A stretch of 64,000 nucleotides of DNA, from NCBI GenBank assembly GCA_016787265.1, contig JAEUVF010000010.1:223591-287590 (forward strand), written 5' to 3'. Position 1 is the stretch's first letter. The number at the start of each line of letters is the position of its first letter. Below are positions 16,627 through 33,131 of the stretch, piece by piece. The translations under genes were made by a program, and so were the position numbers. Below the pieces are notes generated by a model. It was not told the DNA's origin. It saw nothing but the letters and a program-made list of their open reading frames with translations, and did no database searches. This stretch comes from Flavipsychrobacter sp. Lineage in GTDB: Bacteria; Bacteroidota; Bacteroidia; Chitinophagales; Chitinophagaceae.

Positions 16627-17628
16627 TTAGAGGACCTGGAAGCCGTAGGCATAAGGGTCATCTTCGGGGTCAATAGTGATGGTATTGTATCCATACACTT
16701 TGGCCCATCCTTCAATACCTGGACGGATAGCCGGTTTACCGGCTATCATTGTTTCTTCTTCAATCGTTCCAATAAAAGTGGAGCCGATTATACTTTCATG
16801 AATAAATTGATCTCCTTTTTTCAATAAGCCTTTGGTATACCATTGCGCCATTCGTGCAGAAGTTCCGGTTCCACAAGGACTGCGATCAATGGCTTTATCT
16901 CCATAGAACACCGCATTTCGCGCCGTTGATGAGGGATTCAGTACTGCACCCGTCCAGAGAATATGTGAACAACCCCGGATGGTTGGATCATCCGGATGGA
17001 CGAATTCATATTGCTGGTTGATTCGTTTTCTCAACTCCCTTGCCCAGGCAATTAATTTATCCGCAGGATACTGTTCCAGTCCGGCAAAATTCTTCTGCAC
17101 ATCCACGATCGCATAAAAATTACCTCCATAAGAAACATCGATCACCAGTTCTCCGAGTTCCGGGCAGTCCACGGTTAATTCAGTTGCCGCGAGATACGCC
17201 GGAACATTGGTGAGCTTTACAGATTTTACTTTATAGCCTTCCTGCCTGTAGGAAATTTCCACCAATCCGGCTGGTGCTTCCATTCTGATACGTCCGGGAA
17301 TTTTGGGTGTAATCAATCCTTCTTCAATTGCAATGGTAATGGTACCAATCGTGCCATGTCCACACATGGGCAAACAGCCACTGGTTTCTATAAAAAGTAC
17401 TGCTACATCATTGGCAGCATCATGTGGCGCATATAAAATGGAGCCGCTCATCATATCATGCCCACGAGGCTCGAACATCAGGCCTTTCCGGATCCAGTCA
17501 AAGTTGTTCAGAAAATGCTGTCTCTTCTCACTCATGGTTTGGCCTTCCAGTGTTGGTCCGCCACCAGCTACCAGTCGCACCGGATTTCCACAGGTATGTG
17601 CATCGATACAGAAAAAAGTTTTCTTCAT
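16627..17628 (-). CDS. Proline racemase-family enzyme, predicted 4-hydroxyproline 2-epimerase
   Basis: IDAHTCGNPVRLV. Both catalytic Cys positions are present (LPMCGHGTIG and DRSPCGTGTSA), which is the Cys/Cys epimerase type rather than the Cys/Thr dehydratase type. Confidence 0.8.
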   Translation of the reverse strand: MKKTFFCIDAHTCGNPVRLVAGGGPTLEGQTMSEKRQHFLNNFDWIRKGLMFEPRGHDMMSGSILYAPHDAANDVAVLFIETSGCLPMCGHGTIGTITIAIEEGLITPKIPGRIRMEAPAGLVEISYRQEGYKVKSVKLTNVPAYLAATELTVDCPELGELVIDVSYGGNFYAIVDVQKNFAGLEQYPADKLIAWARELRKRINQQYEFVHPDDPTIRGCSHILWTGAVLNPSSTARNAVFYGDKAIDRSPCGTGTSARMAQWYTKGLLKKGDQFIHESIIGSTFIGTIEEETMIAGKPAIRPGIEGWAKVYGYNTITIDPEDDPYAYGFQVL

Positions 17629-17781
17629 ATAGAATCCTGAATATCCGAAATTACGGGTAGTTAAGCTAGTGCAATCACCTGTATTTAGTGAAAACTTTAC
17701 AGATTTTAGCCAATCCCTTTATTGGTTAAATTCTGAGAATGACAGGCTAAACCAGGTTTATCTCTTCCCTTCGATTTCCAC

Positions 17782-17789
17782 TATGTTTG
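17782..17789 (+). promoter_or_regulatory. Candidate -7 box (TAnnTTTG)
   Basis: TATGTTTG, 23 nt upstream of the ATG at 17812, in the divergent intergenic region. Confidence 0.35.
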
Positions 17790-17811
17790 ATCCAAACAGG
17801 CAGCGTTATAT

Positions 17812-19560
17812 ATGAGTACTAATTTATTCCGGATGATCCTTTGCAGTGGAATACTGCCTGGGGTGTTAACAGGAGGCAGTGTAGCTGCCCAGGTAGATAC
17901 CAAAAAAGAAATTTCCAGTCAGGCATCAGAGCTGACCCATACCATACAGCAGTATAAAGCAGACAAAGGCAGTTTGAGCCGGTTTTATTTCCTTGAAACT
18001 TCACCGGAACGTATTGGGCGGATGAAAGAATTGACGCAGCAATATCGAAAATTGCTGGATCGCTTTACCTACAACCAGCTTAGTATGGATGGCAAGGTTG
18101 ACTATGTATTATTCAGCCGGAATCTGCAGAATGAATGGAACCTGTTGGAGACCGGCGAAGCAGAACTCCCTATCGCGAAAGCATATGTTCCTTTTTCAGA
18201 TGAATTGTTTGGCTATGAAAGAAAAAGAAGGAGAGGTGCGGTATTACCTGCAGCAAGGTTGGCCGGAGAATGGCAGGGTTGGAAAAAACAGTTGGAAGAG
18301 CGCATTACTGCAATAGAAAAAGATCAGCAGTTAACACTATCGATGGCTTATGCGGTTCAGAAAAGGCTGGAGGATATTCAGGCAGCAGCCAAATCTGTAT
18401 ATGAATTTTATTATGGGTATGATCCCCAATTCAGCTGGTGGATTGAACAACCCTATAAAGGAACCGACAGCCTGATCAAACGGTACAGCAATGCTGTAAT
18501 GGCAAAGGCAAGAAAAAACTCCGCAACGGCAGATGATGGTAGCGGGATCCTGGGCCGGCCTATAGGAGCTGGGGAACTGAAAAGACAGCTGGAACTGGAA
18601 TTCATTCCTTATACAGCTGAAGAATTAATAAAGATAGCGGAGGAAGAATTTGCCTGGTGTGATAAGGAATTATTGAAGGCTACCAAAGAGATGGGTTTTG
18701 GAACCGACTGGAAAGCGGCCATGGAGAAGGTAAAGAACAGTTATGTACCGGAAGGCAGACAGCCTGAGATGATCCTGGATCTGTTTAACCAGAGTGTAGA
18801 ATTTATCAAAAAGCATAAACTGGTAACGATACCTCCTGTTGCAGAAGAGACCTGGCGAATGAATATGATGTCTCCGGAAAGGCAGTTGGTCAATCCGTTT
18901 TTCCTCGGTGGTGAAAGCATTATCATTTCTTATCCGACACATACCATGGAACAGGAGGATAAACTGATGAGCATGCGGGGTAATAATCCGCATTTTTCAA
19001 GAGCAACCGTACACCATGAACTGATTGCCGGGCATCATTTACAGATGTACCAGAATCAGCGCTATAAAACCTATCGTAATTTTTATACACCTTTCTGGAT
19101 CGAAGGATGGGCCCTTTATTGGGAGATGATTTTATGGGATATGAAATTCCCACGCGGACCGGAAGATAAAATAGGGATGTTGTTCTGGCGAATGCATCGT
19201 TGTGCGCGCATTATTTTTTCTTTGAACTATCATTTGGGTAAATGGACACCACAGCAATGTATTGATTTCCTGGTGGACAGGGTAGGACATGAACGCGCTA
19301 ATGCAGAAGGGGAAGTGCGTCGATCTTTTCAGGGCAATTACGGACCACTTTATCAACTGGCGTATATGATTGGTGGATTACAGTTTTACCAGTTGAAGAA
19401 AGAACTGGTGGATGGTGGAAAGATGAGTTATATGGAATTTCATGACCGGATTTTACAGGAACACCAGATGCCGGTAGAAATGATAAGGCATATTCTCACC
19501 AATACAGCACCTAAAAAAGAGTTTAAAACAGAATGGCGTTTTTATCCGACAATCAAATAA
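17812..19560 (+). CDS. DUF885-family protein (putative secreted metallopeptidase)
   Basis: Signal peptide and the HHELIAGHHLQ motif (DUF885 HExxGHH signature). Length 582 aa. Confidence 0.7.
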   Translation: MSTNLFRMILCSGILPGVLTGGSVAAQVDTKKEISSQASELTHTIQQYKADKGSLSRFYFLETSPERIGRMKELTQQYRKLLDRFTYNQLSMDGKVDYVLFSRNLQNEWNLLETGEAELPIAKAYVPFSDELFGYERKRRRGAVLPAARLAGEWQGWKKQLEERITAIEKDQQLTLSMAYAVQKRLEDIQAAAKSVYEFYYGYDPQFSWWIEQPYKGTDSLIKRYSNAVMAKARKNSATADDGSGILGRPIGAGELKRQLELEFIPYTAEELIKIAEEEFAWCDKELLKATKEMGFGTDWKAAMEKVKNSYVPEGRQPEMILDLFNQSVEFIKKHKLVTIPPVAEETWRMNMMSPERQLVNPFFLGGESIIISYPTHTMEQEDKLMSMRGNNPHFSRATVHHELIAGHHLQMYQNQRYKTYRNFYTPFWIEGWALYWEMILWDMKFPRGPEDKIGMLFWRMHRCARIIFSLNYHLGKWTPQQCIDFLVDRVGHERANAEGEVRRSFQGNYGPLYQLAYMIGGLQFYQLKKELVDGGKMSYMEFHDRILQEHQMPVEMIRHILTNTAPKKEFKTEWRFYPTIK

Positions 19561-19664
19561 AGAAATGCCAGTTAAAATCTGTAAATTTTTAATTAAATGC
19601 CGGATAGCTCGCTGTAATCACTTGTTCTAATTTCGAACCAACATAACTAGCAAAATTTCATACT

Positions 19665-20609
19665 ATGGCAAGTATAAACTGGAACGGGGTTTACCCGGCC
19701 TTACTTACTCCCTTCAACCAACAGGAAGAAATTGATTTTGATCTGTATAAAATCAATCTGGATGCACAGATTGAAGCTGGTGTTGACGGCATAATCATCG
19801 GTGGATCACTTGGTGAAACAAGTACGTTATTAAGTGAGGAAAAAAATGAACTGCTAATCGTTTCCAAGGAATCAGTTCCAGCGCATATTCCGGTACTGGT
19901 GAATATTGCAGAGCAAAGTACAAAAGTGGCTGTAGCCCTGGCCCGGGAGGCAGAGAAAAATGGGGCCGATGGTTTAATGCTGTTGCCACCTATGCGGTAT
20001 AAGGCCGATGACCGTGAGACAGTAGAGTTCTTTAAAGCAGTTGCCCGCAATACATCCTTACCGATTCTATTGTATAACAATCCTGTAGATTATAAAATTG
20101 AGATCACACTGGATATGTTTGAACAGTTGCTGGAATGTGAAAACATTCAGGCAGTAAAAGAATCCACCCGCAATACCATGAATGTAACGAGGATGCTTAA
20201 CCGATTTGGAGAGCGGTATAAGATATTAACGGGAGTTGATCCGATTGCAGTGGAAAGCCTGATGTTAGGCGCACATGGTTGGGTAGCCGGACTGGTGGAT
20301 GCTTTCCCAAGGGAAACGGTTGCAATTTACCGCCTGGTAAAGGCTGGTCGTTACGAGGAAGCGGTAGCCATTCACAGGTGGTTCCTTCCACTATGTGAAC
20401 TGGATATTCTTCCGAAGCTGGTACAATATATCAAACTGGCGGCAAAAGCAACGGGAATCGGGTCGGAGTATGTTCGGGCTCCCAGGTTGGTGCTGGAAGG
20501 TGAGGAGTTAAAAAGAGTGCAGAAAATAATTGATGATGCATTGGCCTGTCGCCCCGAATTACCAGATTATCTCAACCTGCAAACAGTATCCAATGCTCAG
20601 TGGGCTTAG
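19665..20609 (+). CDS. DHDPS/NAL-family lyase, predicted delta1-pyrroline-4-hydroxy-2-carboxylate deaminase
   Basis: 314 aa, DapA-like (GIIIGGSLGE, LYNNP, Schiff-base Lys context QAVKEST). The specific function is inferred from the Hyp cluster context. Confidence 0.7.
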   Translation: MASINWNGVYPALLTPFNQQEEIDFDLYKINLDAQIEAGVDGIIIGGSLGETSTLLSEEKNELLIVSKESVPAHIPVLVNIAEQSTKVAVALAREAEKNGADGLMLLPPMRYKADDRETVEFFKAVARNTSLPILLYNNPVDYKIEITLDMFEQLLECENIQAVKESTRNTMNVTRMLNRFGERYKILTGVDPIAVESLMLGAHGWVAGLVDAFPRETVAIYRLVKAGRYEEAVAIHRWFLPLCELDILPKLVQYIKLAAKATGIGSEYVRAPRLVLEGEELKRVQKIIDDALACRPELPDYLNLQTVSNAQWA

Positions 20610-22185
20610 TATTATTGGTCGTGGCCGTGGAGCTGTAACTGCTCATCAATTGCGTGCCAGAAGTCCAATTACCGGACAATCCTTACCGGAAGAATTTTAT
20701 ATTGCCAGCCCGGATGAAATTAACCGGACATTGGAACTGGCTTCGAAGGCTGCTCCTGAATTCAGTGGATTAAACGCAGCGCAAAGGGCGGTATTTCTGG
20801 ATGCTATTGGGGAGGAGATACTGGCTATCGGACCGGCTTTGCTGGAGCGGGCTCATCTTGAAACCGGATTGCCGGAGGCAAGACTAAGTGGAGAAAGAGA
20901 TCGTACCGTTAATCAGTTAAAATTATTTGCTGCTGTATTGCGCGAAGGTAGCTGGGTGAATGCTGTTATTGATACGGCTTTGCCGGATCGCAAACCCCTG
21001 CCTCGAACGGATCTCCGAAAGATGAATGTGGCGATTGGGCCGGTGGTTGTTTTCGCGGCAAGCAATTTTCCCTTTGCATTTTCAACAGCCGGAGGCGATA
21101 CTGCTGCTGCGCTGGCTGCAGGCTGTCCGGTAATTGTAAAAGCGCATGGATCGCATCTTGGTACCAATGAACTGGTTGCATCCGCTATTCAAAAAGCTTC
21201 CATTAAATGTGGTATGCCGGAAGGAGTATTCTCATCACTCATAGGAGAAGGCGCTGCATTGGGTCAGCAACTGGCCAAGGATGAGCGCATCAAGGCAATC
21301 GGGTTTACCGGATCTTTTAAAGCAGGCATGGCCTTGTTTCATACAGCAACCAAAGAGCGAAAAGAACCCATCCCTGTTTATGCAGAGATGAGCAGCATCA
21401 ATCCGGTACTGTTGTTACCAGCGCTCGTAAAAGCTGATCCGGAGGCACTTGCAACACAACTGGCAACTTCTATCACGTTGGGTGTAGGACAGTTTTGTAC
21501 CAATCCGGGTTTATTATTCATGCTCGAAGATGAGCATACAGACAATCTGATAAAGGCGTTAACAGAAGCGTTGAAAAAAGCAACAGCAGGTGTGATGCTG
21601 AACAGTTCAATCTGCCGAAGTTATTATAGTAACCGTACTCATCTGAAAGAGATAAGCGGCGTAAAAGCGTTGCTGGAAGGAGAAGACGAAGCGGTCGATT
21701 GCAAAGGAAGCGCTGCTTTATATGAAGTGAGTGCTGCTGATTTTTTGAAGCATGCGGAATTGCAGGAGGAAGTTTTCGGTCCGGCATCACTGATAGTAAG
21801 ATGTAAGACAAAAGAAGATATGTTGAAAGCCATTCAGCATATGCAGGGACAATTAACCGGTTCTGTCTTTGGACAAGTTCCGGAGCTGGATGATTTCAGA
21901 GATTCCATCACGCTACTGCAAAGCCGGGTGGGCAGATTGATCTTTAACCAGGTACCAACCGGTGTGGAAGTTTGCCATGCGATGGTACATGGAGGCCCTT
22001 TCCCGGCTACAACCGATGCAGGAGCTACTTCGGTAGGAGCTTCTTCCATAGAGCGTTTTTTGCGGCCCGTATGCTGGCAGAATTGTCCGGCTGATTTTCT
22101 TCCTGAGGCCTTACAAAACAACAATCCATTAGGGATCATGCGCAAGATCAATGGTCAGTATACCCGGGATCCCATAACCAGTTAA
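20593..22185 (+). CDS. Aldehyde dehydrogenase, predicted alpha-ketoglutarate semialdehyde dehydrogenase
   Basis: ALDH fold (FTGSFKAG, EMSSINP, GQFCTNPG catalytic Cys context). The ATG at 20593 gives a 17-nt overlap with the upstream gene. Confidence 0.75.
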   Translation: MLSGLSIIGRGRGAVTAHQLRARSPITGQSLPEEFYIASPDEINRTLELASKAAPEFSGLNAAQRAVFLDAIGEEILAIGPALLERAHLETGLPEARLSGERDRTVNQLKLFAAVLREGSWVNAVIDTALPDRKPLPRTDLRKMNVAIGPVVVFAASNFPFAFSTAGGDTAAALAAGCPVIVKAHGSHLGTNELVASAIQKASIKCGMPEGVFSSLIGEGAALGQQLAKDERIKAIGFTGSFKAGMALFHTATKERKEPIPVYAEMSSINPVLLLPALVKADPEALATQLATSITLGVGQFCTNPGLLFMLEDEHTDNLIKALTEALKKATAGVMLNSSICRSYYSNRTHLKEISGVKALLEGEDEAVDCKGSAALYEVSAADFLKHAELQEEVFGPASLIVRCKTKEDMLKAIQHMQGQLTGSVFGQVPELDDFRDSITLLQSRVGRLIFNQVPTGVEVCHAMVHGGPFPATTDAGATSVGASSIERFLRPVCWQNCPADFLPEALQNNNPLGIMRKINGQYTRDPITS

Positions 22186-22189
22186 AGAA

Positions 22190-24806: not shown

Positions 24807-25040
24807 ACAGTTTGTTTAGGTAAAGGGAAATTAGGGAATTCATTTTCCCGACAGCCATCCGGGTTAAAATCTGGGGTGCTTCCGCTAAATCAGGTAAAAC
24901 TCACCGAAATCAAAAGGGGCTAATATCTGGTAACAATTAAATAAAATGTGTGAATCCATAGCTGTTTTCTGATTCTAAATTTAAGTGTAAAATATACAAT
25001 TAACCGATTGCTTTCTGTCACAACCAAAAATTGTCAAGCT

Positions 25041-28028
25041 ATGAGAATTTCTTACAGGAGGATCAGTGCCTTGCTGGTTTTTCTATTTATGACTGTAATT
25101 CTTGCTGGTGCCTGTTTCGAATTGCGGGCCCAGGAAAGATCACCAAACCGCATAAATGGAAAAATTACCAATGAAGAGGGCCTTCCGTTACCGGGTGTTT
25201 CGGTCACGGAAATTGGAACACAGAATGGAACCACAACAGATGAAAAGGGCGAATTTGTTTTAACACTGACGCGAACCAATTCAAAAATCCGGATTAGTTC
25301 GGTAGGGTTTGCGAGCCAGGATATTGATCCGGCCGGGCGCTCTACATTTTCCATACAATTGAGTGCGGCTGAGTCAAGCCTGGATGATGTGGTAGTAGTT
25401 GGATATGGTAAACAGAAAAAGGGAGAAGTAACAGGTGCTGTTGCAAATGTAAAAAGAGAAGATTTCACCCAGGGGTTTGCGCGGGATGCAGGGCAACTGA
25501 TTCAGGGTAAGGTAGCCGGACTCGCAATTGTTACTCCCAGTGGTAACCCCAATGCCACCACGCAGATATCATTAAGAGGAAATAGTACGATATTGTCTAC
25601 AACTGAGCCACTCATATTAATTGATGGTATCCCCGGCTCATTGAACACGGTTGCACCGGAAGACATTGAATCCATAGATGTATTGAAAGACGGATCTGCT
25701 GCTGCGATCTATGGAACCAGGGGTACTAATGGAGTAATTCTAATTACCACCCGTAAAAGAAGCGGAAAGATGCCTGCTACACTTAGTTACGATAGTTATG
25801 TCAGTGTTCAGAACATTGCCAGGCGCATGGAGTTCCTGGAGGCGGCGGATGTACGTAAACTGGTGAATGATGGATTTTACCCTGACGCCTACGATAAAGG
25901 AACCAGTACAGACTGGCTGAAAGAGATCAGCCGGAATCCTGTGAGTCATGTACATAATGTTTCACTTCAGGGCGGAACAGCACAGTCAAATTATATCGCT
26001 ACACTTAATTTGCGCAACTGGGAAGGTCTGTTCAATCGTTCCGACAACAAACAATTCACCGGTCGTATTGATCTGAATCATTCCATGCTGGATAATCGGT
26101 TGCGCTTTAACGTGAGTTTGCTTGGCAGAAACCGGAAGTATTTCGCCGGTCCCAACTATGATTATATCTACCGGCAGGCAATCATTCGCAATCCCACTGA
26201 CAGTGTATATGATTACCTGGGGAGATGGAAAGAAGATCCCAATGCATATAACTATGATAACCCGGTCCGCAGCATTGAAGAAACATCCGGTGAGTTCCGA
26301 ACATCAGAACTTCGTTTAAACGGTAGTGTGATTTTCTCTCCCATAAAGGACCTGAATATTAAGTTACTTGTTTCAAATGTGAAGATCAATTCACTGTCGG
26401 GATATTCTGAAAGTTTTAATCACCGGGCCTCTGTTGTGAATAACCGGACCGGGTATGCATCCCGAACCACCAGCCTCTTTCAGGATAACCTGTTGGAGTT
26501 GACTACAGATTATACCAAATCATTTGGTCAGCATCGGGTAACCGTGCTGGGTGGCTATAGCTGGCAGGATGTGACAAGTGAAGGATTTAATGCGGCCAAT
26601 TCCAATTTCCCAACAGATCTGTATACCTACAATAACCTTGCAGCAGGTGATGCCCTGCTCTTGCAAAATAACAGTGCATTTGGATTAGGCTCCTTTAAAA
26701 CCAATCATAAACTGATCGGGTTTTTCGGAAGGGTGAATTATTCGCTCAGTGAGAAATACCTGCTCATGGCAAGTATGCGCTATGAAGGCTCTTCCAAATT
26801 TGGAGCCAACTACAAGTGGGGAACATTCCCGGCGGTTTCAGTTGGATGGAGGCTAAACAGGGAATCATTCCTGACTAATGCTAAATTCCTGGATGACCTG
26901 AAACTGCGGGCAGGATTTGGTATCACCGGTACAGTTCCAACAGACCCGTATCAATCACTCATTTCACTGGCGTATAGCAATAACCGTTACCTGTACAATG
27001 GTCAGTGGATACAGCCGATTTCACCGACCAGAAACCCTAACCCTGATTTGCGTTGGGAGAAAAAGGAGGAATATAATATCGGATTGGATTATGCCATGTT
27101 CCGCGGGCGTTTGAGTGGTAGTATCGATTTCTACCAGCGCAACACCAAGGATATGTTGTACAACTTCCCGGTGCCTGTTCCACCGAATCTGTTTGGGACC
27201 ACGCTGGCGAATGCCGGCAGCATGTTAAACCGTGGTGTGGAAATCCTGGTGAATTATGATTTTATCCGCAAGAAGGATATCGATTTCAGAGCCAACCTTA
27301 CCTATTCTGCCAATAAGAATAAACTGATTTCCATTTCAAATGATTTGTATCAGACAACCAATGATTTCTTTTTCGCAGGGTATACCGGTGAACCTATCCA
27401 GGAATCAACACATCGCGTGAAAGTGGGTGAATCCATTGGAAATTTCTGGGGCTACAAAACCATTGATGTAGATGCTGATGGAAAATGGATCATTGAAGGG
27501 GAGGATGGTAAACCGAAGCCAATTGGCCAGTCTACCCCTTCTGATAAAAAAGTGCTGGGTAATGGTATTCCAAAACATGTAGCGGGACTCAATCTCTATT
27601 TCCGGTACAAGAGAGCAGATATCGCTGTAAACATGCGTGGTGCATTTGGTTACCAGATTCTGAATTTCCAGCGCATGTATTATGAAAATCCCAAGATCAA
27701 ACAATACAATATGCTGAAATCCGCACTGGACCCGGTATATGGAAAAAGAATGCTGGATAATGACCTGGCGTATGTATCCTATTACATTGAAGATGGTGAT
27801 CACTGGAAAGTTGATAACGTAACCCTTGGATACAACTTTGATGTTAAGAACAGCAGGTATTTCCGTACAGCGCGGGTATACGCTTCTGCACTCAACCTGC
27901 TGGTGTTGACCGGTTATAAAGGAATTGATCCGGAGGTTAACAGGCTGGGCCTTGATCCGGGCGTGGATTCCAGGGACAAGTACCCAACAACAAGAACATT
28001 CACCATGGGAGTAAACATTGGTTTTTAA
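25041..28028 (+). CDS. susC: SusC/RagA-family TonB-linked outer membrane protein
   Basis: Carboxypeptidase-regulatory-like N-terminus (GKITNEEGLPLPGVSV), TonB box DDVVVVGYG, plug (AAAIYGTRGTNGVILITT) and a C-terminal barrel ending NIGF. Confidence 0.9.
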   Translation: MRISYRRISALLVFLFMTVILAGACFELRAQERSPNRINGKITNEEGLPLPGVSVTEIGTQNGTTTDEKGEFVLTLTRTNSKIRISSVGFASQDIDPAGRSTFSIQLSAAESSLDDVVVVGYGKQKKGEVTGAVANVKREDFTQGFARDAGQLIQGKVAGLAIVTPSGNPNATTQISLRGNSTILSTTEPLILIDGIPGSLNTVAPEDIESIDVLKDGSAAAIYGTRGTNGVILITTRKRSGKMPATLSYDSYVSVQNIARRMEFLEAADVRKLVNDGFYPDAYDKGTSTDWLKEISRNPVSHVHNVSLQGGTAQSNYIATLNLRNWEGLFNRSDNKQFTGRIDLNHSMLDNRLRFNVSLLGRNRKYFAGPNYDYIYRQAIIRNPTDSVYDYLGRWKEDPNAYNYDNPVRSIEETSGEFRTSELRLNGSVIFSPIKDLNIKLLVSNVKINSLSGYSESFNHRASVVNNRTGYASRTTSLFQDNLLELTTDYTKSFGQHRVTVLGGYSWQDVTSEGFNAANSNFPTDLYTYNNLAAGDALLLQNNSAFGLGSFKTNHKLIGFFGRVNYSLSEKYLLMASMRYEGSSKFGANYKWGTFPAVSVGWRLNRESFLTNAKFLDDLKLRAGFGITGTVPTDPYQSLISLAYSNNRYLYNGQWIQPISPTRNPNPDLRWEKKEEYNIGLDYAMFRGRLSGSIDFYQRNTKDMLYNFPVPVPPNLFGTTLANAGSMLNRGVEILVNYDFIRKKDIDFRANLTYSANKNKLISISNDLYQTTNDFFFAGYTGEPIQESTHRVKVGESIGNFWGYKTIDVDADGKWIIEGEDGKPKPIGQSTPSDKKVLGNGIPKHVAGLNLYFRYKRADIAVNMRGAFGYQILNFQRMYYENPKIKQYNMLKSALDPVYGKRMLDNDLAYVSYYIEDGDHWKVDNVTLGYNFDVKNSRYFRTARVYASALNLLVLTGYKGIDPEVNRLGLDPGVDSRDKYPTTRTFTMGVNIGF

Positions 28029-28045
28029 TGTAAAAAAGAGTAATC

Positions 28046-29625
28046 ATGAAACAACATAAAATTCTAAGTATCTCAGTATTGATGGCAGGTGCATTTCTGC
28101 TGAATACAGGATGTACCAAACTGGATGAAGAAGTATATGACCAGGTATTGGAAACTTCCTTTCGTCCGTCTGAAAAAGATATACCGGCGATTATTGGTCC
28201 GGCTTATACCATCATGCGTCCCATGTATGCGGGCTGGCAGGGAAATTTTGATCTGCAGGAAGAACCGGCTGATGTAATTGTAACACCGGCGCGACCGAAT
28301 GGATGGTATGATGGTGGTACTTACCAGCGGATGCACAACCACGAATGGAACCAGGTGCAATGGCAGCCGCAGAACTTATGGAATAACTGTTACAATGGGA
28401 TCAATACTGTAAACCGGATTCTGTTCCAGATTGAGTCTGGCTCTATTCCGATTGCCAATGGAAAAGATGCGCTGGTATCTGAGTTGAAAGCGTTGAGAGC
28501 ATTTTATTATTCCCTGTTGGTGGATACACATGGTAATGTACCATTGGTAACGGATTTCTCGGATGCAACTTTACCGCAACAGGCAACCCGGCAGCAGGTA
28601 TATGAATTTGTAGAGAAGGAGTTGCTTGAAAACATGAACAATCTGAGTGCGGTTGCGGATAAGTCGATGTATGGACGTATTAATAAATGGGTCGCAAAAA
28701 CGATATTGGCACGTCTTTACCTGAATGCAGAAGTATATACCGGTACTGCGCAATGGCAGAAATGTATTGAGCAGTGCAACGATATCATCAATGCGAATAT
28801 TTACATCCTGGAATCGAATTACAAGAACAATTTTGTGACGGCAAATGAGAACTCAAAAGAACTGATATTGGCAGTTCCTTATGATGAGGTTTTTGCGACG
28901 CAGAATTCAATTCATATGAAAACACTTGCAACCGCCCATCGGAATGTGTTGAATATGGAGGAAACTGTGCGGTTCCTCAGTTCATTGATACCTATGATCC
29001 GGATGATACACGTATGAAAGATACCTGGATCATGGGACCTCAGTACAGTGTAACAACCGGTGAAGAGATTCTGAATTATACGCGCCATGTGGATGGCATT
29101 GCGCTGGCGGATTATTTCCAGGGTTATCGCATTGGTAAATATGAAATCAAAGTTGGTGCACGGGGTGGATTAAGTACTGATTTTGCCGTGTTCCGTTATG
29201 CGGATATTCTTATGATGAAAGCGGAGTCACTACTCAGAACAGGTAATGCCGGGGATGCAGCAACCCTGGTAACCCAGGTACGTCAGCGCGCATTTGCAAC
29301 TACCAATCCGGTAAAAGCAATTGTAACTGCAAATGATCTTACAAAAGGAAGTGTTTACAATTATGGTTACTGGAAAGATGGGGCTGTAACTGAAGTACAG
29401 GGTGGTGCAGATATTCCCTTTGGTCGGTTCTATGATGAGTTGGGATGGGAGTTTGCTGCAGAAGCGCACCGCCGCCAGGATATGATCCGCTTTGGCATAT
29501 TCTCTCGCAAGATATGGTTCAATCACCGGCCGAAGAATGATGGCAAGTTGAGAACCCTGTTCCCGATTCCGGAAGCAGAACTGAATAAGAATCCCAATCT
29601 GGTACAAAACCCCGATTACAGATAA
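28046..29625 (+). pseudogene. susD: SusD/RagB-family lipoprotein gene interrupted by a frameshift
   Basis: Two ORFs (28046-29017 and 29014-29625) together make a typical roughly 525-aa SusD. The lipobox is LLNTGC. The downstream frame already reads YGGNCAVPQFIDTYDPDDTR before the first ORF's stop. Confidence 0.7.
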
Positions 29626-29654
29626 TTACCTTTATATTCTTAACTGAAAACAGT

Positions 29655-32063
29655 ATGACGAATTTTCGTCTTTCAATTGCAATAGCCGGCTCCCTTGTTT
29701 CACAATTTGTGGCAGCACAGGATGTGCAATATGATTATCCGATACAACCGGTTCCTTTTACGCATGTGCATTTTCATGATGCTTTCTGGGCACCTAAGAT
29801 TGAAGTGAATGCAAAAGTCAGTATTCCCTATACGCTTCAAAAATGCAGGGAAACCGGCCGCATTGATAATTTCCTGAAAGCAGCCGGTAAAATGCCGGTA
29901 GGAAAGATCACGGAATATCCTTTTGACGATACGGATGTTTATAAGCTGATTGAAGGAGCTTCTTATTCTCTGCAAACCAGGCCTGACCCGGAGTTAGAGA
30001 AAACACTGGATACCCTCATCAGTATCATTGCTGACGCGCAGGAGCCGGATGGTTATCTCTATACCTTCCGCACGATGAAACCGGATACCCTGCATCCCTG
30101 GATCAGTCCGAAGCGCTGGGAAAAAGATCCTGACCTGAGCCATGAACTGTACAATAGCGGGCACCTGTACGAAGCAGCAGTAGCGCATTACCTGGCAACA
30201 GGCAAACGTAATTTCCTGGACATCGCATTAAAAAATGCGGATCTCCTGCTACGCGATTTCGGTCCGGGCAAAGCAGCCTATTTTCCTGGTCACCAGGTGG
30301 TGGAAATGGGATTGGCCCGCCTGTATCGCGTCACTGGCAAAAAGGAGTACCTGGACCTGGCCAAGTTTTTCCTGGATATCAGAGGCAATGGTAATATCAA
30401 GGGAGCTGAGTATAGTCAGTCGCACAAGATGGTGACTGATCAGCATGAAGCAGTTGGGCATGCAGTACGCGCAGCCTACATGTACACCGGTATGGCGGAT
30501 GTTGCTGCACTCACCGGAAACAAAGATTATATCAACGCCATCCAGGATATCTGGAAAGATGTTATGGAGCATAAGTTATACCTCACCGGCGGAATTGGTG
30601 CAACCGGTCACGGTGAAGCATTTGGTGCTGCGTATCAATTACCAAATATGTCGGCCTATGCAGAAACCTGTGCATCCATTGCCAATGTGTACTGGAACAG
30701 TCGCATGTTTTTAATGAATGGTGATGCACAGTATGTGGATGTGCTGGAGCGCATCTTATACAATGGCTTGTTATCAGGTGTATCCTTGAGCGGCGACCGG
30801 TTTTTCTATCCGAATCCCCTGGCATCCATGGGACAGCATCAGCGAAGCGCCTGGTTTGGTTGTGCCTGTTGTATCAGCAATATGACAAGGTTCATGCCAT
30901 CGGTTCCCGGATATGTATATGCGAAAAAGGCGAATGATCTCTATGTGAATTTATATGTAGCCAGTTCTTCGGATATCCAGTTGCCTGCCGGGAAACTGCA
31001 ACTGGAGCAGGTAACAGAATATCCCTGGAAGGGACGGGTGGATATCATTATGAAAGAAGCTCCTTCAAAAGCTTATACGGTAAGATTACGTATTCCAGGT
31101 TGGGCCAGGCAGGAAGCGGTTCCAGGAAGTTTATATGCATTCCTGGATACACAAAGAAAGCCCATTCGAATCCTCCTGAATGGCAAGGCGGTTGACTATA
31201 AGATGGAGAAAGGCTACGCGGTAATCAATCGCAGCTGGAAAAAAGGAGATAAGCTGGAACTGGATTTGCCTCTTGAAATTGAAAAAGTAATCGCAAACCA
31301 GCAGGTGAAAGATAATATCAATCGTTTCGCCCTGCAGCGCGGACCAATTGTATATTGCATAGAGGGACCAGACAATAAAGACAATGCGGTGAATAATATT
31401 GTGGTGGATCGTTCGGCAGGAATTCAGGCCAACTATGAGCCGGAATTATTGAATGGTGTAATGGTGCTGACTGCAAAAGGGAGCAGCACCAAAAGACAGG
31501 TGAATACAACTGCTCTCCTGCGTTCTGAGCAAACAGTAAAGGCCATCCCATACTATTCCTGGAATAACCGTGGTGCAGGAGAAATGCAGGTTTGGATTCC
31601 CTACGCAGAATCTGCAGCCTTACCAATGCCGACGCCAACCATTGCATCCAAAAGTAAAGTCAGTTCATCACAGAAAAATCCCCGTATGTTGAAAGGGATG
31701 AACGATCAGTATGAGCCATCGAGTTCACAGGATCGCAATTCCATTTACCTGCATTGGTGGCCAAAGGAAAATACAACCGAATGGGTTCAATATGATTTCG
31801 ATCAGCTTCAAACCATGCGTTTGAGTAAATTCTACTGGTTTGATGATGCTCCGTTTGGAGGCTGCAGGATTCCGGCTGGTTACCAGCTGCTCTATGAAAA
31901 GGATGGCAACTGGCTGCCGGTGGAAGTGGAACAGCAGGATCCCATATCAAAAGATGCCTATAACAGCATCCGGTTCAAACCGGTGCAGACTAAGGCACTT
32001 CGGCTGGAGGTTAAATTACCGGAGAAACATTCTGCCGGTATTCATGAATGGATTGTGAACTGA
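29655..32063 (+). CDS. GH127 (DUF1680) beta-L-arabinofuranosidase-family protein with C-terminal discoidin/F5-8-type-C-like domain
   Basis: Signal peptide. AYAETCASIANV (Glu-x-Cys) and WFGCACCISNMTRF (Cys-Cys) match the Zn/nucleophile cysteines of the GH127 family. The C-terminal NTTEWVQYDF...YWFDD is discoidin-like. Confidence 0.8.
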   Translation: MTNFRLSIAIAGSLVSQFVAAQDVQYDYPIQPVPFTHVHFHDAFWAPKIEVNAKVSIPYTLQKCRETGRIDNFLKAAGKMPVGKITEYPFDDTDVYKLIEGASYSLQTRPDPELEKTLDTLISIIADAQEPDGYLYTFRTMKPDTLHPWISPKRWEKDPDLSHELYNSGHLYEAAVAHYLATGKRNFLDIALKNADLLLRDFGPGKAAYFPGHQVVEMGLARLYRVTGKKEYLDLAKFFLDIRGNGNIKGAEYSQSHKMVTDQHEAVGHAVRAAYMYTGMADVAALTGNKDYINAIQDIWKDVMEHKLYLTGGIGATGHGEAFGAAYQLPNMSAYAETCASIANVYWNSRMFLMNGDAQYVDVLERILYNGLLSGVSLSGDRFFYPNPLASMGQHQRSAWFGCACCISNMTRFMPSVPGYVYAKKANDLYVNLYVASSSDIQLPAGKLQLEQVTEYPWKGRVDIIMKEAPSKAYTVRLRIPGWARQEAVPGSLYAFLDTQRKPIRILLNGKAVDYKMEKGYAVINRSWKKGDKLELDLPLEIEKVIANQQVKDNINRFALQRGPIVYCIEGPDNKDNAVNNIVVDRSAGIQANYEPELLNGVMVLTAKGSSTKRQVNTTALLRSEQTVKAIPYYSWNNRGAGEMQVWIPYAESAALPMPTPTIASKSKVSSSQKNPRMLKGMNDQYEPSSSQDRNSIYLHWWPKENTTEWVQYDFDQLQTMRLSKFYWFDDAPFGGCRIPAGYQLLYEKDGNWLPVEVEQQDPISKDAYNSIRFKPVQTKALRLEVKLPEKHSAGIHEWIVN

Positions 32064-32064
32064 T

Positions 32065-32949
32065 TTAGCTGGCAACCTCATAGGTGTGCATCGCATAGGA
32101 TTCCACATACTCGCTGGGCGATTTGCCTAATACTGCTTTGAAAACGCGATTGAAATTGGTAATACTGTTGAATCCGCAGCTATAAGCTATCGTTGAAATA
32201 CTGTCGAACCCGCCCTCCGTAAGTTTTTTACAGGCCTCATTGATCCTCACTTCATTGAGAAAAGAAACAAACGTGTGGCGGGTTCTTTTTTTGAAAAAGC
32301 GACAGAAAGCCTGTGGGGTCATATGTGCCTGTTTGGCCACATCATCCAGCGTGATCTGTTCGGCATAATTGCTCAAAATAAAATTGTAAATCCTGCCGAG
32401 ACGCAGCCCTTCATTTTCACTGAACTGTGCCATTTCTGACACGCTTCCCAGTTCTTTCAGCTGAGAGGAGGCACAACAGGCCCGCAGCAGTTCCAGGAAA
32501 CTGATGATCTGATCAAGGTTGGATTGCTGCTCCATTTTCAACATGAGGCTGCTGATTTCCAGCGTCATTTCCTCCGGCAGAATAAACCCTGAGCGATGTT
32601 TCTGCAGGAACAGACGAATCAGTTTGGTCTCAGTCAGATCAAACAGGAACTGCAGTTTGCCGAAAGGATTAAAGAAAATGGTTAAGGCTTCCACTTCAAG
32701 ATTTCCACCGTAATAAATGGGATCATTTTTGAATACATGCGGCTGGTTGGCACCAATGCAGAAGATCTCATTCGCCCTGAATGGGTACATATTGTTTTCA
32801 ACCACCAGGGTTCCTTCACCCTTAATAATCCAGGTCAGTTGGATTTCATCATGCCGATGTAAGTGCTGATACATAAACGGGAGCTTGTCGCGCTGGACAA
32901 TGATGTTTTTCTCTCCCGGAACCGGTATGGTGAATTGCAGAACCTTCAT
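32065..32949 (-). CDS. AraC-family transcriptional regulator (cupin N-terminal domain)
   Basis: C-terminal double HTH (LDDVAKQAHMTPQAFCRFFKKRT...GFNSITNFNRVFK). Length 294 aa. Confidence 0.85.
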   Translation of the reverse strand: MKVLQFTIPVPGEKNIIVQRDKLPFMYQHLHRHDEIQLTWIIKGEGTLVVENNMYPFRANEIFCIGANQPHVFKNDPIYYGGNLEVEALTIFFNPFGKLQFLFDLTETKLIRLFLQKHRSGFILPEEMTLEISSLMLKMEQQSNLDQIISFLELLRACCASSQLKELGSVSEMAQFSENEGLRLGRIYNFILSNYAEQITLDDVAKQAHMTPQAFCRFFKKRTRHTFVSFLNEVRINEACKKLTEGGFDSISTIAYSCGFNSITNFNRVFKAVLGKSPSEYVESYAMHTYEVAS

Positions 32950-33068
32950 GTTCAGGATATTAAGTGTATGAATTACAGTAATTTACGGTATTCCATGAAA
33001 TTATCCCGCAATAGTGAAAATATGTGGATAGGCGGTTAAAATACGGGCAAACCAAAATCATTTTTGGG

Positions 33069-33084
33069 CGTGACCACAGTCACA
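33069..33084. promoter_or_regulatory. CRP-like box CGTGAC-CACA-GTCACA upstream of sqr
   Basis: Perfect GTGAC/GTCAC inverted repeat with a 4-nt spacer, 48 nt upstream of the ATG at 33132. It has the same GTGAC-N4-GTCA core as 12944-12959. Confidence 0.45.
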
Positions 33085-33131
33085 ATTACCCGGTACCCCT
33101 CTGTTTACCTTTAGTGTTCAATGCAACCACT

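What the first reader, a model, noticed from the sequence alone, without database searches (positions are those of the whole stretch)
16627..32949. Hydroxyproline catabolon joined to a SusC/SusD-GH127 PUL: candidate extensin/HRGP (Hyp-arabinoside) utilisation locus
All four enzymes of the bacterial trans-4-hydroxy-L-proline pathway are contiguous:
- Cys/Cys-type 4-Hyp 2-epimerase at 16627-17628
- DapA-like Pyr4H2C deaminase at 19665-20609
- KGSA dehydrogenase at 20593-22185
- FAD-dependent D-Hyp dehydrogenase at 22190-23428

A secreted DUF885 HExxGHH putative peptidase and an APC permease accompany them. Immediately next to them lie SusC, SusD, a GH127 enzyme and an AraC regulator. The founding GH127 enzyme (Bifidobacterium longum HypBA1) releases beta-L-arabinofuranose from Hyp-linked arabino-oligosaccharides of plant extensins. 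The Glu-x-Cys and Cys-Cys Zn/nucleophile motifs of that family can be read here.

Finding the glycan-removing enzyme, an outer-membrane import pair, a peptidase candidate and the complete Hyp-to-2-oxoglutarate route in one 16-kb block suggests one system. It would consume both the sugar and the unusual amino acid of hydroxyproline-rich glycoproteins. I am not aware of such a combined locus being characterised in Bacteroidota.
Basis: partly seen in the sequence, partly recalled or inferred. Interest (0 to 1): 0.7.

Follow-up and report, generated by a model that had tools for sequence, protein, structure and literature searches.

The report
Hydroxyproline catabolism joined to arabinofuranosidase locus
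A soil/freshwater Flavihumibacter keeps the genes that burn the plant-wall amino acid hydroxyproline together with a sugar-stripping enzyme (GH127) and an outer-membrane import pair, apparently under one shared regulator, which looks like a previously undescribed system for eating hydroxyproline-rich plant glycoproteins, sugar and amino acid alike.

Summary
Three corrections apply: SusD is broken by a 16-bp frameshifting deletion, the DUF885 motif is HExxxGHH, and a DPP-IV/S9 peptidase gene present in the closest relatives has been deleted between the permease and SusC.

- In all 11 Flavihumibacter species with enough flank, the GH127 ortholog stays beside Hyp genes through at least three rearrangements.
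- In other Chitinophagaceae, GH127 or GH146 genes lie inside Hyp operons (16 of 80 metagenomic loci; Danxiaibacter). They are often accompanied by alpha-L-arabinofuranosidase, alpha-galactosidase, mutarotase or the L-arabinose catabolic genes (Chitinophaga).
- A bipartite direct-repeat box (half-sites 21 bp apart, AraC-like) marks Hyp operon promoters across genera. In the window it occurs five times and only in this block: upstream of HypEpi, DUF885, DapA-like, the former S9 site and SusC. A matrix trained without window sites still finds them (0.07 hits expected per 64 kb).

Nothing is shown biochemically. The closest structure, which I recall as BT3674, acts on arabinogalactan, so extensin versus AGP stays open. 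No prior description was found. I rate it a new variant of known kinds.

The parts
16627..17628 (-). 4-hydroxyproline 2-epimerase (Cys89/Cys252 type)
   Evidence: NF010578 equivalog at 587 bits against a cutoff of 376. PF05544 E 2e-127. Both catalytic Cys present.
17676..17713 (-). Hyp box (bipartite direct repeat), 48 nt upstream of HypEpi
   Evidence: PWM score 28.4. Leave-out PWM score 27.8. This site was not used for training.
17722..17759 (+). Hyp box, 53 nt upstream of DUF885
   Evidence: Leave-out PWM score 20.1.
17812..19560 (+). Exported DUF885 protein; candidate gluzincin-like peptidase (HHELIAGHH)
   Evidence: PF05960 at 160 bits. Signal peptide. Fold search: DUF885 structures first, then M32 carboxypeptidase 5WVU at prob 0.98 and TM about 0.37. 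Recurs in Hyp operons of L044, L049, L057, L059, L062, L065 and L129.
19568..19605 (+). Hyp box, 60 nt upstream of the DapA-like gene
   Evidence: PWM score 29.2. Leave-out PWM score 29.5. Not used for training. The same position is conserved in L003, L004 and L010.
19665..20609 (+). DHDPS-family protein; candidate Pyr4H2C deaminase
   Evidence: PF00701. Below the DapA equivalog cutoff. Conserved partner of HypEpi in 44 of 80 loci.
20593..22185 (+). Aldehyde dehydrogenase; candidate 2-oxoglutarate semialdehyde dehydrogenase
   Evidence: PF00171. Operon partner in 42 of 80 loci. No equivalog reached.
22190..23428 (+). FAD-dependent DAO-family oxidoreductase; candidate D-hydroxyproline dehydrogenase
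   Evidence: PF01266. NF001933 at 246 bits, below its cutoff. Operon partner in 33 of 80 loci.
23397..24806 (-). APC-family amino-acid permease; candidate Hyp importer
   Evidence: PF13520. Orthologs at 64-66% sit inside Hyp operons of L046, L057, L065 and L071. A Hyp box lies upstream of APC in L010 and L015.
24860..24897 (+). Hyp box; in L019 and L002 it lies 45-58 nt upstream of a DPP-IV/S9 peptidase gene that is deleted here
   Evidence: Leave-out PWM score 17.3.
24916..24953 (+). Hyp box proximal to SusC (54 nt before TTG 25008, 87 nt before ATG 25041)
   Evidence: PWM score 20.0, conserved in L019, L001 and L002. Leave-out PWM score 21.6. Not used for training.
25008..28028 (+). SusC/RagA-type TonB-dependent transporter
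   Evidence: TIGR04056 at 682 bits and TIGR04057 signature. 48% ortholog in a Tannerellaceae SusC-SusD-GH127 triad, L039.
28046..29625 (+). SusD-like lipoprotein, frameshifted by a 16-bp deletion at about 28956
   Evidence: PF14322 on the first ORF and PF07980 on the second. Deletion seen against L001, L019 and L002.
29655..32063 (+). Exported GH127 beta-L-arabinofuranosidase-family enzyme with an extra C-terminal discoidin-like domain
   Evidence: PF07944, PF20736, PF20737 and a weak PF22633 hit. 735 bits to 6EX6. Catalytic Glu and Cys and the Zn ligands conserved. Signal peptide.
32065..32949 (-). AraC-family regulator (cupin + HTH_18); candidate Hyp-responsive activator
   Evidence: Orthologs at about 60% lie divergent to the Hyp operon in L045, L057 and L065; AraC-family genes sit in the same divergent position in L129 and L131 (identity to the window not measured). 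Boxes lie in those divergent regions.
60027..60986 (-). Possible satellite: exported GH43/BT_3657-like arabinosidase
   Evidence: Own signal peptide. About 60% identical to the C-terminal domain of the GH146-GH43 fusion that sits beside HypEpi in L007-L009.
60970..62265 (-). Possible satellite: GFO/IDH/MocA oxidoreductase, ortholog of the Tat-signal gene lying between APC and GH127 in other Flavihumibacter
   Evidence: 73-76% identical to the GFO of L004-L010 and L015. Related genes occupy the HypEpi-DAO slot in L070, L100 and L105. GH109_C-bearing versions flank the Chitinophaga Hyp clusters.

Best explanation
Window 16627-32949 is one regulon-level unit, a hydroxyproline-glycoside/HRGP utilisation locus of a Flavihumibacter (Chitinophagaceae).

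Proposed mechanism:
1. Hyp-O-arabinosylated glycopeptides from plant or algal hydroxyproline-rich glycoproteins cross the outer membrane through SusC/SusD. This step is inferred, and SusD is frameshifted in this strain.
2. In the periplasm, exported peptidase candidates trim the backbone. These are DUF885 here, plus a DPP-IV/S9 enzyme in close relatives. This step is inferred.
3. The exported GH127 removes beta-L-arabinofuranose. The family and an intact active site are shown. The substrate is inferred.
4. Free trans-4-Hyp enters through the APC permease. It is then converted by the epimerase, the D-Hyp dehydrogenase, the Pyr4H2C deaminase and the KGSA dehydrogenase to 2-oxoglutarate. The epimerase assignment is shown at equivalog level. 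The other three rest on family plus conserved operon context.
5. The AraC-family regulator at the end of the block activates every transcription unit. It would act through a bipartite direct-repeat box (GRTTAAWW-type half-sites 21 bp apart) placed about 45-60 nt upstream of start codons, probably in response to Hyp. The box distribution is shown. Regulator binding and the effector are inferred.
For: 1. **Conserved adjacency within the genus.** In 11 of 11 Flavihumibacter loci with enough flank, the GH127 ortholog (73-95% identical) lies within 10 kb of Hyp genes. This holds across different architectures: SusCD between APC and GH127; a GFO gene in that slot; SusCD moved upstream of DapA-like in L006; and HypEpi-DapA-GFO-GH127 with a GH146-GH43 fusion beside HypEpi in L007-L009.

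2. **Independent recurrence in other genera.**
- Danxiaibacter flavus has GH146 between the APC permease and the DAO gene of its Hyp operon.
- 16 of 80 metagenomic HypEpi loci carry GH127 or GH146. Twelve of the 18 genes lie within 2.5 kb of HypEpi, mostly co-directional.
- Co-resident genes include alpha-L-arabinofuranosidase, GH27 alpha-galactosidase and aldose-1-epimerase.
- The L-arabinose catabolic genes abut the Hyp cluster in two Chitinophaga genomes and in L048.

3. **The AraC gene brackets the GH127.** It is the ~60% ortholog of the regulator that sits divergent to the Hyp operon elsewhere, so GH127 and SusCD lie inside the Hyp cluster.

4. **The operator.**
- The generalised pattern gives 22 matches in 1.76 Mb. 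Nineteen lie 47-141 nt upstream of, and co-oriented with, Hyp or glycosidase genes, and 13 were not used to define it.
- A PWM finds five boxes in the window, all in this block.
- A PWM trained without window, L002 or L003 sites scores them 27.8, 20.1, 29.5, 17.3 and 21.6. Only 0.07 hits at 18 or above are expected per simulated 64 kb.
- Boxes also precede GH146 (L005, L006), the S9 peptidase (L019, L002), APC (L010, L015) and GH127 (L071).

5. **Enzyme state.** The GH127 active site is intact and the protein is exported.

6. **Literature.** GH127 and GH146 enzymes cleave beta-L-Araf from Hyp-linked arabinosides, with GH146 XeHypBA1 and Bll4HypBA1 acting on Araf-beta1-Hyp (PMC10850190). An AraC-family, L-Hyp-binding activator of Hyp catabolism is known in P. 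aeruginosa (PMC6608401).
Against: - There are no expression, binding or enzyme data.
- GH127 orthologs outside Flavihumibacter (Longitalea, Niastella, Acidobacteriota) have no Hyp genes within 10 kb.
- SusC-SusD-GH127 also exists as a stand-alone module in Tannerellaceae (L039).
- The closest solved structure (6EX6, 735 bits), which I recall as BT3674, belongs to an enzyme reported to act with galactanases on larch arabinogalactan, not on Hyp-arabinosides.
- In species with GFO|GH127 divergent promoters, no Hyp box was found upstream of GH127. A different palindrome sits there instead.
- The raw similarity of the two window intergenic regions is only modestly above chance (5 of 300 shuffles).
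- The window block lacks GH121, GH146, alpha-galactosidase and arabinose catabolic genes.
- SusD is frameshifted and the S9 gene is deleted here.
- Three of six named non-Flavihumibacter genomes sampled have no glycosidase or arabinose link at the Hyp cluster.
Confidence: 0.6

Rival explanations
1. There are two independent systems that are merely neighbours. One is a Hyp or Hyp-peptide catabolic cluster, fed for example by collagen or free Hyp. The other is a small glycan PUL (SusC/SusD/GH127) aimed at beta-L-Araf caps of arabinan or arabinogalactan. On this view the adjacency is inherited synteny within one genus.
For: - SusC-SusD-GH127 occurs without Hyp genes in Tannerellaceae (L039).
- GH127 orthologs outside the genus lack Hyp neighbours.
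- Many Hyp clusters have no glycosidase (64 of 80 loci, although many of those contigs are short).
Against: - The adjacency survives at least three rearrangements within the genus.
- Two different families, GH127 and GH146, are embedded in Hyp operons of other genera.
- The Hyp-cluster AraC ortholog lies beyond the GH127.
- A leave-out PWM finds Hyp boxes upstream of SusC.
Confidence: 0.17
2. The locus targets arabinogalactan-proteins rather than extensin-type Hyp-arabinosides. GH127 would remove beta-1,3-L-Araf caps from type II arabinogalactan side chains, as reported for BT3674. Hyp would come from the AGP core after other enzymes remove the Hyp-O-galactan.
For: [quoted passage not shown]
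- The C-terminal domain gives a weak hit to a galactose-binding fold.
- Tat-signal GFO/GH109-like genes recur in the slot next to GH127.
Against: - No galactanase, beta-galactosidase or glucuronidase was seen in any of the Hyp-linked loci examined.
- The accessory genes found instead are alpha-L-arabinofuranosidase, GH146, alpha-galactosidase and arabinose catabolism, which match extensin decoration: Hyp-Araf(1-4) and Ser-alpha-Gal.
Confidence: 0.15
3. In this particular strain the SusCD arm is a decaying remnant. The functional unit would be only Hyp uptake and catabolism plus a periplasmic GH127 acting on small Hyp-arabinosides that diffuse in or arrive by another route.
For: - A 16-bp frameshifting deletion in SusD.
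- The S9 peptidase gene is deleted here and, with different breakpoints, in L001. It is split in L002.
- SusCD is absent from this slot in L003, L004, L007 and L010.
Against: - SusC is intact and 96% identical to the relatives' copies.
- The deletion could be an assembly error.
- The SusC-proximal box is conserved.
Confidence: 0.3

Closest known systems
Bifidobacterium longum HRGP beta-L-arabinooligosaccharide cluster (HypBA1 GH127, HypBA2 GH121, HypAA GH43, ABC transporter) and the Xanthomonas euvesicatoria XeHypBA1/BA2/AA set
   Same: It uses a GH127/GH146-family cysteine glycosidase with the same Zn/Cys/Glu site. Relatives add GH43-like or GH51-like alpha-L-arabinofuranosidases. The presumed substrate class is the same, Hyp-linked beta-L-arabinofuranosides (PMC7263609, PMC10850190).
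   Different: - No GH121 is present.
- Import is by SusC/SusD rather than an ABC system.
- Most importantly, the sugar-removing genes are physically joined to the complete Hyp-to-2-oxoglutarate route and appear co-regulated with it. The papers read here do not report this for either organism.
Bacterial trans-4-hydroxy-L-proline pathway clusters (Pseudomonas lhp genes with AraC-type LhpR; Sinorhizobium hyp genes with GntR-type HypR)
   Same: The same four enzyme families occur in one cluster together with a permease. An AraC-family regulator is adjacent, as with LhpR.
   Different: This is a Bacteroidota version with exported glycosidases, SusC/SusD and peptidase candidates in the same cluster. 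The regulator's operator, a 21-bp-spaced direct repeat, is predicted here and not shown.
Bacteroides thetaiotaomicron BT3674 (GH127; I recall 6EX6 as this protein) in the arabinogalactan-protein PUL
   Same: It is the closest solved structure (735 bits, residues 25-659 aligned). It is also a SusC/SusD-linked GH127.
   Different: The window enzyme has an extra C-terminal discoidin-like domain of about 140 residues. It sits in a Hyp catabolic cluster rather than a galactan PUL. That 6EX6 is BT3674 rests on my memory, because the paper search for the PDB code returned nothing relevant.
Classical Bacteroidota PULs (SusC/SusD + CAZymes + HTCS or ECF sigma/anti-sigma regulator)
   Same: It has a SusC/SusD pair followed immediately by a glycoside hydrolase.
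   Different: The regulator is a cytoplasmic AraC-type protein shared with an amino-acid catabolic operon. The downstream catabolism encoded is for an amino acid, not a sugar.

Membership tests
GH127 (HypBA1-type beta-L-arabinofuranosidase) | PF07944 catalytic domain plus the GH127 middle and C-terminal domains | tested here: met
   PF07944 at 364 bits, PF20736 at 79 bits and PF20737 at 87 bits. 314-735 bits to five GH127 structures.
GH127 (HypBA1-type beta-L-arabinofuranosidase) | Acid/base Glu322, nucleophile Cys417 and Zn ligands Glu338, Cys340, Cys418 (HypBA1 numbering) | tested here: met
   E321, C405, E337, C339 and C406 align without gaps around the motifs.
GH127 (HypBA1-type beta-L-arabinofuranosidase) | Hydrolysis of beta-L-arabinofuranosides, specifically Ara(n)-Hyp | not testable with these tools
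   This needs a recombinant enzyme assay. The NCBIfam aceric-acid hydrolase equivalog was not reached (482 bits against a cutoff of 950), so it is not that specificity.
4-hydroxyproline 2-epimerase (proline racemase superfamily) | Equivalog-level HMM score and a Cys/Cys catalytic pair | tested here: met
   NF010578 at 587 bits against a cutoff of 376. The proline racemase and 3-Hyp dehydratase models score below their cutoffs. C89 and C252 are present.
Bacterial trans-4-Hyp to 2-oxoglutarate pathway cluster | D-Hyp dehydrogenase, Pyr4H2C deaminase (DHDPS family) and KGSA dehydrogenase clustered with the epimerase | tested here: inconclusive
   The right families are present and conserved as an operon in dozens of loci. 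No equivalog-level model is reached for any of the three, so the specific activities are inferred from context.
Polysaccharide utilisation locus (PUL) | Adjacent, intact SusC-like and SusD-like genes next to a CAZyme | tested here: inconclusive
   SusC is met (TIGR04056 at 682 bits) and the CAZyme is met. SusD is present but frameshifted by a 16-bp deletion in this window, while it is intact in L001, L019 and L002.
B. longum-type HRGP arabinooligosaccharide degradation cluster | GH121 beta-L-arabinobiosidase and a GH43 HypAA-type alpha-L-arabinofuranosidase alongside GH127 | tested here: not met
   Every ORF of the block is assigned to another family, and none is GH121 or GH43. A GH43/BT_3657-like gene lies 27 kb away at 60027-60986.
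LhpR-like AraC-family hydroxyproline regulator | N-terminal cupin/AraC ligand domain plus two HTH motifs; adjacent to Hyp genes; direct-repeat operator in target promoters; binds L-Hyp | tested here: inconclusive
   Domain architecture is met and adjacency is met. The candidate operator is found with strong positional specificity. Hyp binding, DNA binding and homology to LhpR itself were not tested.
Gluzincin metallopeptidase (for DUF885) | HEXXH-type zinc motif plus a downstream Glu on a thermolysin-like or M32/M3-like fold | tested here: inconclusive
   The motif is the non-canonical HHELIAGHH, with invariant E431 and E438 downstream. The sequence profile reaches only uncharacterised DUF885 structures. 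The fold search gives M32 carboxypeptidase 5WVU at E 0.049, prob 0.98 and TM 0.35-0.39.

The most novel reading that the evidence does not exclude
Chitinophagaceae possess a dedicated, Hyp-sensing AraC regulon, marked by a 21-bp-spaced 'Hyp box'. It unites deglycosylation of hydroxyproline-rich glycoproteins, peptide trimming, outer-membrane import and hydroxyproline catabolism in one modular locus.

- Deglycosylation genes: GH127, GH146, GH43/GH51 alpha-arabinofuranosidases and GH27 alpha-galactosidase.
- Peptide-trimming candidates: DUF885 and DPP-IV/S9.
- Import: SusC/SusD.

This would be the first system described that consumes both the glycan and the signature amino acid of extensin-type plant or algal wall proteins. 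Two recurrent members may carry new activities. The Tat-exported GFO/IDH/MocA (GH109-like) protein may be an oxidative glycosidase for Hyp-O- or Ser-O-glycosides. DUF885 may be a Hyp/Pro-peptide peptidase.
Probability: 0.35. Interest if true: 0.75.

Novelty: new variant of a known kind. Interest (0 to 1): 0.62.

Why it matters
Hydroxyproline-rich glycoproteins (extensins, AGPs, algal wall proteins) are a large and poorly tracked pool of carbon and nitrogen in soil, rhizosphere and fresh water. How bacteria mineralise them is essentially unknown outside the sugar-releasing enzymes of Bifidobacterium and Xanthomonas.

A locus that couples Hyp-glycoside cleavage to Hyp catabolism under one regulator would provide several things:
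- a genomic marker for HRGP degraders
- a defined regulon and operator to test
- candidate functions for two widespread unknowns, DUF885 and the Tat-GFO/GH109-like proteins
- a rationale for why abundant rhizosphere Chitinophagaceae carry so many GH127 and GH146 genes

It also shows a PUL-type import pair wired to an amino-acid pathway instead of a sugar pathway.

Tried and rejected
- **Operator pattern.** My first pattern had an off-by-one spacer and found nothing. It was corrected.
- **Raw similarity of the two divergent intergenic regions.** This is only modestly significant on its own (23 of 34 matches; 5 of 300 shuffles reach it). I therefore relied on cross-genus positional specificity and a leave-out PWM.
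- **Sigma-70 promoter and intrinsic terminator scans.** Both were at chance level and uninformative, as expected for Bacteroidota.
- **Palindrome.** The AAATGT-N8-ACATTT palindrome upstream of GH127 in GFO-bearing relatives is absent from the window.
- **DUF885.** The sequence profile against PDB found only uncharacterised DUF885 structures. Orthologs in Larkinella and Pseudoflavitalea are not in Hyp clusters, so DUF885 is not a Hyp-specific marker.
- **Literature.** The Xanthomonas HRGP paper mentions no gene cluster, transporter or Hyp catabolism. The search for PDB code 6EX6 returned irrelevant hits, so '6EX6 = BT3674' is from memory. No paper combines 'hydroxyproline epimerase' with 'arabinofuranosidase'.
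- **Collagen reading rejected.** I considered that the accessory genes indicate collagen use. The 'Collagen_bind_2' hit is only a domain name on a GH140-like protein, and the accessory glycosidases are arabinose- and galactose-directed.
- **Aceric-acid hydrolase (BT1003-type) rejected for the GH127.** It scores 482 bits against a cutoff of 950.


Full report
**1. What is there**

The window comes from a Flavihumibacter (Chitinophagaceae). The GH127 protein is 94-95% identical to those of F. cheonanensis and F. fluminis.

| Coordinates | Strand | Gene |
|---|---|---|
| 16627-17628 | - | 4-Hyp 2-epimerase |
| 17812-19560 | + | DUF885 |
| 19665-20609 | + | DHDPS-family protein |
| 20593-22185 | + | aldehyde dehydrogenase |
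| 22190-23428 | + | DAO-family flavoenzyme |
| 23397-24806 | - | APC permease |
| 25008-28028 | + | SusC |
| 28046-29625 | + | SusD |
| 29655-32063 | + | GH127 |
| 32065-32949 | - | AraC-family regulator |

- The epimerase passes the NCBIfam equivalog NF010578 (587 bits against a cutoff of 376). It carries both catalytic cysteines, C89 and C252.
- SusC scores 682 bits on TIGR04056.
- The GH127 carries every catalytic and zinc-binding residue of HypBA1: E321, E337, C339, C405 and C406, equivalent to E322, E338, C340, C417 and C418.
- Both GH127 and DUF885 have cleavable signal peptides.
- The three remaining Hyp-pathway enzymes are assigned by family and conserved operon context. None reaches an equivalog cutoff.

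Corrections to the observation:
- SusD is split into two frames by a 16-bp deletion at about 28956. Three relatives have an intact 1593-bp gene.
- The DUF885 motif is HHELIAGHH.
- The likely SusC start is the ATG at 25041.
- The APC|SusC intergenic region is a fusion of two intergenic regions of F. fluminis (L019). It is the scar left by deletion of a DPP-IV/S9 peptidase gene that L019 and L002 still carry there.

The block is flanked on the left by sulfur genes (MBL-rhodanese, YeeE/YedE). On the right are a pyridine-nucleotide-disulfide oxidoreductase, Usp, CtaA and a patatin-like protein.

**2. Is the adjacency conserved?

*From the GH127 side.* A scan of species-representative genomes gave 43 loci, which I mapped with tblastn.
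- All 11 Flavihumibacter loci with enough flank have Hyp genes within 10 kb of the GH127 ortholog.
- The architectures differ:
  - APC-SusC-SusD-GH127 (window, L001)
  - APC-S9-SusC-SusD-GH127 (L019, L002)
  - APC-FAH-GH127 (L003)
  - APC-GFO|GH127, with or without an alpha-L-arabinofuranosidase and a GH146 beyond AraC (L004, L005, L006, L010)
  - SusC-SusD relocated upstream of DapA-like (L006)
  - GH146-GH43 fusion|HypEpi|DapA|GFO|GH127 inside a YegS...FabH frame (L007-L009)
- The window still has that YegS...FabH frame at 59-63.4 kb. It contains only the GFO ortholog (73-76% identical) and a separate exported GH43-like arabinosidase.
- So GH127 has stayed with the Hyp genes through at least three rearrangements.
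- Outside the genus, GH127 orthologs (35-72% identical; Longitalea, Niastella, Acidobacteriota) have no Hyp neighbours.
- A Tannerellaceae MAG keeps SusC (48%), SusD (40-45%) and GH127 (43%) as a stand-alone module.

*From the Hyp side.* HypEpi is about 85% identical across Chitinophagaceae.

Named genomes gave the following:
- **Danxiaibacter flavus:** SusD-SusC-AraC | DHDPS-ALDH-HypEpi-APC-GH146-DAO.
- **Chitinophaga sp. XS-30 and a C. niabensis-like contig:** GH109-like, DHDPS-ALDH-HypEpi-DAO-DUF885, then an SSF transporter and araA-araD-araB. The niabensis-like contig also has a divergent AraC, which the XS-30 locus does not show.
- **Filimonas effusa:** AraC | the four enzymes plus a DPP-IV/S9 peptidase.
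- **Filimonas zeae and Agriterribacter:** no glycoside link.

A metagenome scan gave 80 HypEpi loci.
- 16 carry GH127 or GH146. Of the 18 genes, 12 lie within 2.5 kb of HypEpi, about 20 per Mb of flank.
- They are usually co-directional and often sit between HypEpi and the DAO gene (L060, L084, L088).
- The unassigned gaps in those operons encode an aldose-1-epimerase, an alpha-L-arabinofuranosidase, a GH27 alpha-galactosidase, GH140-like proteins, a GtaA-type six-hairpin protein and a small TIM-barrel hydrolase.
- Tat-signal GFO genes occupy the same HypEpi-DAO slot in L070, L100 and L105.
- Beta-L-Araf, alpha-L-Araf and Ser-O-alpha-Gal are the decorations of extensin (established knowledge; PMC7263609, PMC10850190).
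- I could not compute a proper genomic background. My estimate that GH127 and GH146 genes occur at about 1 per Mb in such genomes is from memory.

**3. Co-regulation in silico**

The two divergent promoter regions of the block share a bipartite element with identical spacing. As a raw similarity this is only modest, with 5 of 300 shuffles reaching it.

The same layout of two GRTTAAWW-type half-sites 21 bp apart sits upstream of the Hyp operon in Filimonas, Chitinophaga and several metagenomic loci.
- A generalised pattern gives 22 matches in 1.76 Mb. Nineteen lie 47-141 nt upstream of, and co-oriented with, DapA-like, DUF885, S9, SusC, FAH or GH146 genes. Thirteen of the matches were not used to define the pattern, and only 3 lie elsewhere.
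- A PWM adds three further window sites that were not in the training set: upstream of HypEpi (17676-17713), upstream of DapA-like (19568-19605), and a SusC-proximal box (24916-24953) conserved in L019, L001 and L002.
- A PWM built without any window, L002 or L003 site still scores the five window boxes 27.8, 20.1, 29.5, 17.3 and 21.6. Simulated 64-kb sequences give 0.07 hits at 18 or above.
- No comparably strong hit occurs elsewhere in the window.
- Boxes also precede APC (L010, L015), GH146 (two each in L005 and L006) and GH127 (L071).

Direct repeats two helical turns apart are the classic AraC-family layout (established knowledge). An AraC-family, L-Hyp-binding activator of Hyp catabolism is known in P. 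aeruginosa (PMC6608401). The window's AraC is the ~60% ortholog of the regulator that sits divergent to Hyp operons elsewhere. Here it lies beyond the GH127, so SusCD and GH127 are inside the Hyp cluster.

One counterpoint: in species with a GFO|GH127 divergent promoter I found no box upstream of GH127, but a different palindrome.

**4. Mechanism**

- *Shown:* gene content, the intact GH127 active site, export signals, conserved and recurrent linkage, and the box distribution.
- *Inferred:*
  - SusC/SusD imports HRGP glycopeptides.
  - DUF885 (and S9 in relatives) trims the peptides.
  - GH127 removes beta-L-Araf.
  - The APC permease imports Hyp.
  - The four enzymes yield 2-oxoglutarate.
  - AraC senses Hyp and activates all units.

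DUF885 remains a weak peptidase candidate. The profile search reaches only uncharacterised structures. An AF2 model (pLDDT 81) matches M32 carboxypeptidases only at TM about 0.37. Its orthologs also occur outside Hyp clusters.

**5. Comparison with what is known**

The closest systems are:
- the B. longum and Xanthomonas HRGP arabinoside-degrading enzyme sets, which handle the sugar side only
- Proteobacterial Hyp catabolic clusters, which handle the amino-acid side only
- the B. thetaiotaomicron AGP PUL GH127, BT3674

GH146 enzymes are reported to cleave Araf-beta1-Hyp directly (PMC10850190). This makes the GH146 genes embedded in Hyp operons especially telling.

The window's own GH127 is closest to 6EX6, which I recall as BT3674. 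Extensin-type and AGP-type substrates therefore cannot be separated by sequence.

Searches of the paper library found no description of a combined locus. A Latescibacteria in-silico study lists GH127 for extensin and mentions HRGPs, but describes no linked Hyp locus.

**6. Verdict**

- It is a new variant, a new combination of known kinds of system.
- In this particular strain the import and peptidase arm shows decay (SusD frameshift, S9 deletion). Close relatives such as F. fluminis are therefore the better experimental models.

Noticed in passing
window 28940-28970 (SusD): A 16-bp deletion relative to L001, L019 and L002 shifts the SusD frame and yields two ORFs that overlap at ATGA. It is either a real pseudogene or an assembly error.
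   Followed up: partly
window 24896-24916; L019 2931-5213; L002 2830-5109: A DPP-IV_N + Peptidase_S9 gene lies between APC and SusC in F. fluminis. It is split in L002, cleanly deleted in the window, and deleted with different breakpoints in L001, where the upstream box is lost too. A related S9 gene is the last gene of the Hyp operon in Filimonas effusa (L131).
   Followed up: partly
window 59082-63394 (- strand): The order here is YegS/DAGK, an exported GH43/BT_3657-like arabinosidase, a GFO/IDH/MocA and FabH. In L007-L009 this same frame encloses GH146-GH43, HypEpi, DapA, GFO and GH127, which indicates that the Hyp/GH127 genes were relocated in the window lineage.
   Followed up: yes
L004 9939-10000, L006 9822-10000, L007 9837-10000, L010 9817-10000: The divergent GFO|GH127 promoter regions share a palindrome, TAAATGTCA-N4/5-TACATTTA, and have no Hyp box. 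This suggests a second, unidentified regulator for GH127 and GFO in those species. The palindrome is absent from the window.
   Followed up: partly
L044 5849-7312, L129 5181-6647; L070, L100, L105: GFO/IDH/MocA oxidoreductases recur next to or inside Hyp operons. Some have Tat-like signals and some have a GH109 C-terminal domain. They may act as NAD-dependent glycosidases on Hyp-O- or Ser-O-glycosides, but that is speculation.
   Followed up: no
window 13016-16576 and 33024-34331: The Hyp/GH127 block is flanked on both sides by sulfur-related genes: MBL-rhodanese fusion and two YeeE/YedE-type sulfur transport ORFs on the left, and a Pyr_redox_2 oxidoreductase on the right. The block may have been inserted into a sulfide or persulfide handling cluster.
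   Followed up: no
window 33032-33069: A single strong half-site (GGTTAAAATAC) lies in the AraC|oxidoreductase intergenic region, with leave-out PWM score 13.2. Stronger versions occur at the orthologous place in L019, L024 and L001. This could reflect autoregulation of AraC. It also suggests that the GTG start at 33024 of the downstream ORF is too early.
   Followed up: no
window 50183-53589: A GH20 beta-hexosaminidase is immediately followed by a sulfatase with start and stop abutting, which suggests a small sulfated-glycan trimming pair. An Ada-type methyltransferase/regulator follows at 53661-54722.
   Followed up: no
window 54790-58938 (-): A 1382-aa protein with SprB repeats, YDG and MBG domains and a weak T9SS C-terminal sorting signal. 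It is probably a gliding or adhesion surface protein.
   Followed up: no
window 4504-7232: A GH29 alpha-L-fucosidase lies next to a divergently oriented LacI-family regulator. An 809-aa protein with only a weak MG2-domain hit sits upstream at 1568-3997.
   Followed up: no
L013, L014, L026, L028-L030, L039, L042: Outside Chitinophagaceae, GH127 orthologs are frequently paired with a second, distant GH127/GH146-like gene (23-27% identical) within 1-3 kb. This suggests a recurrent two-enzyme beta-L-arabinofuranosidase module.
   Followed up: no
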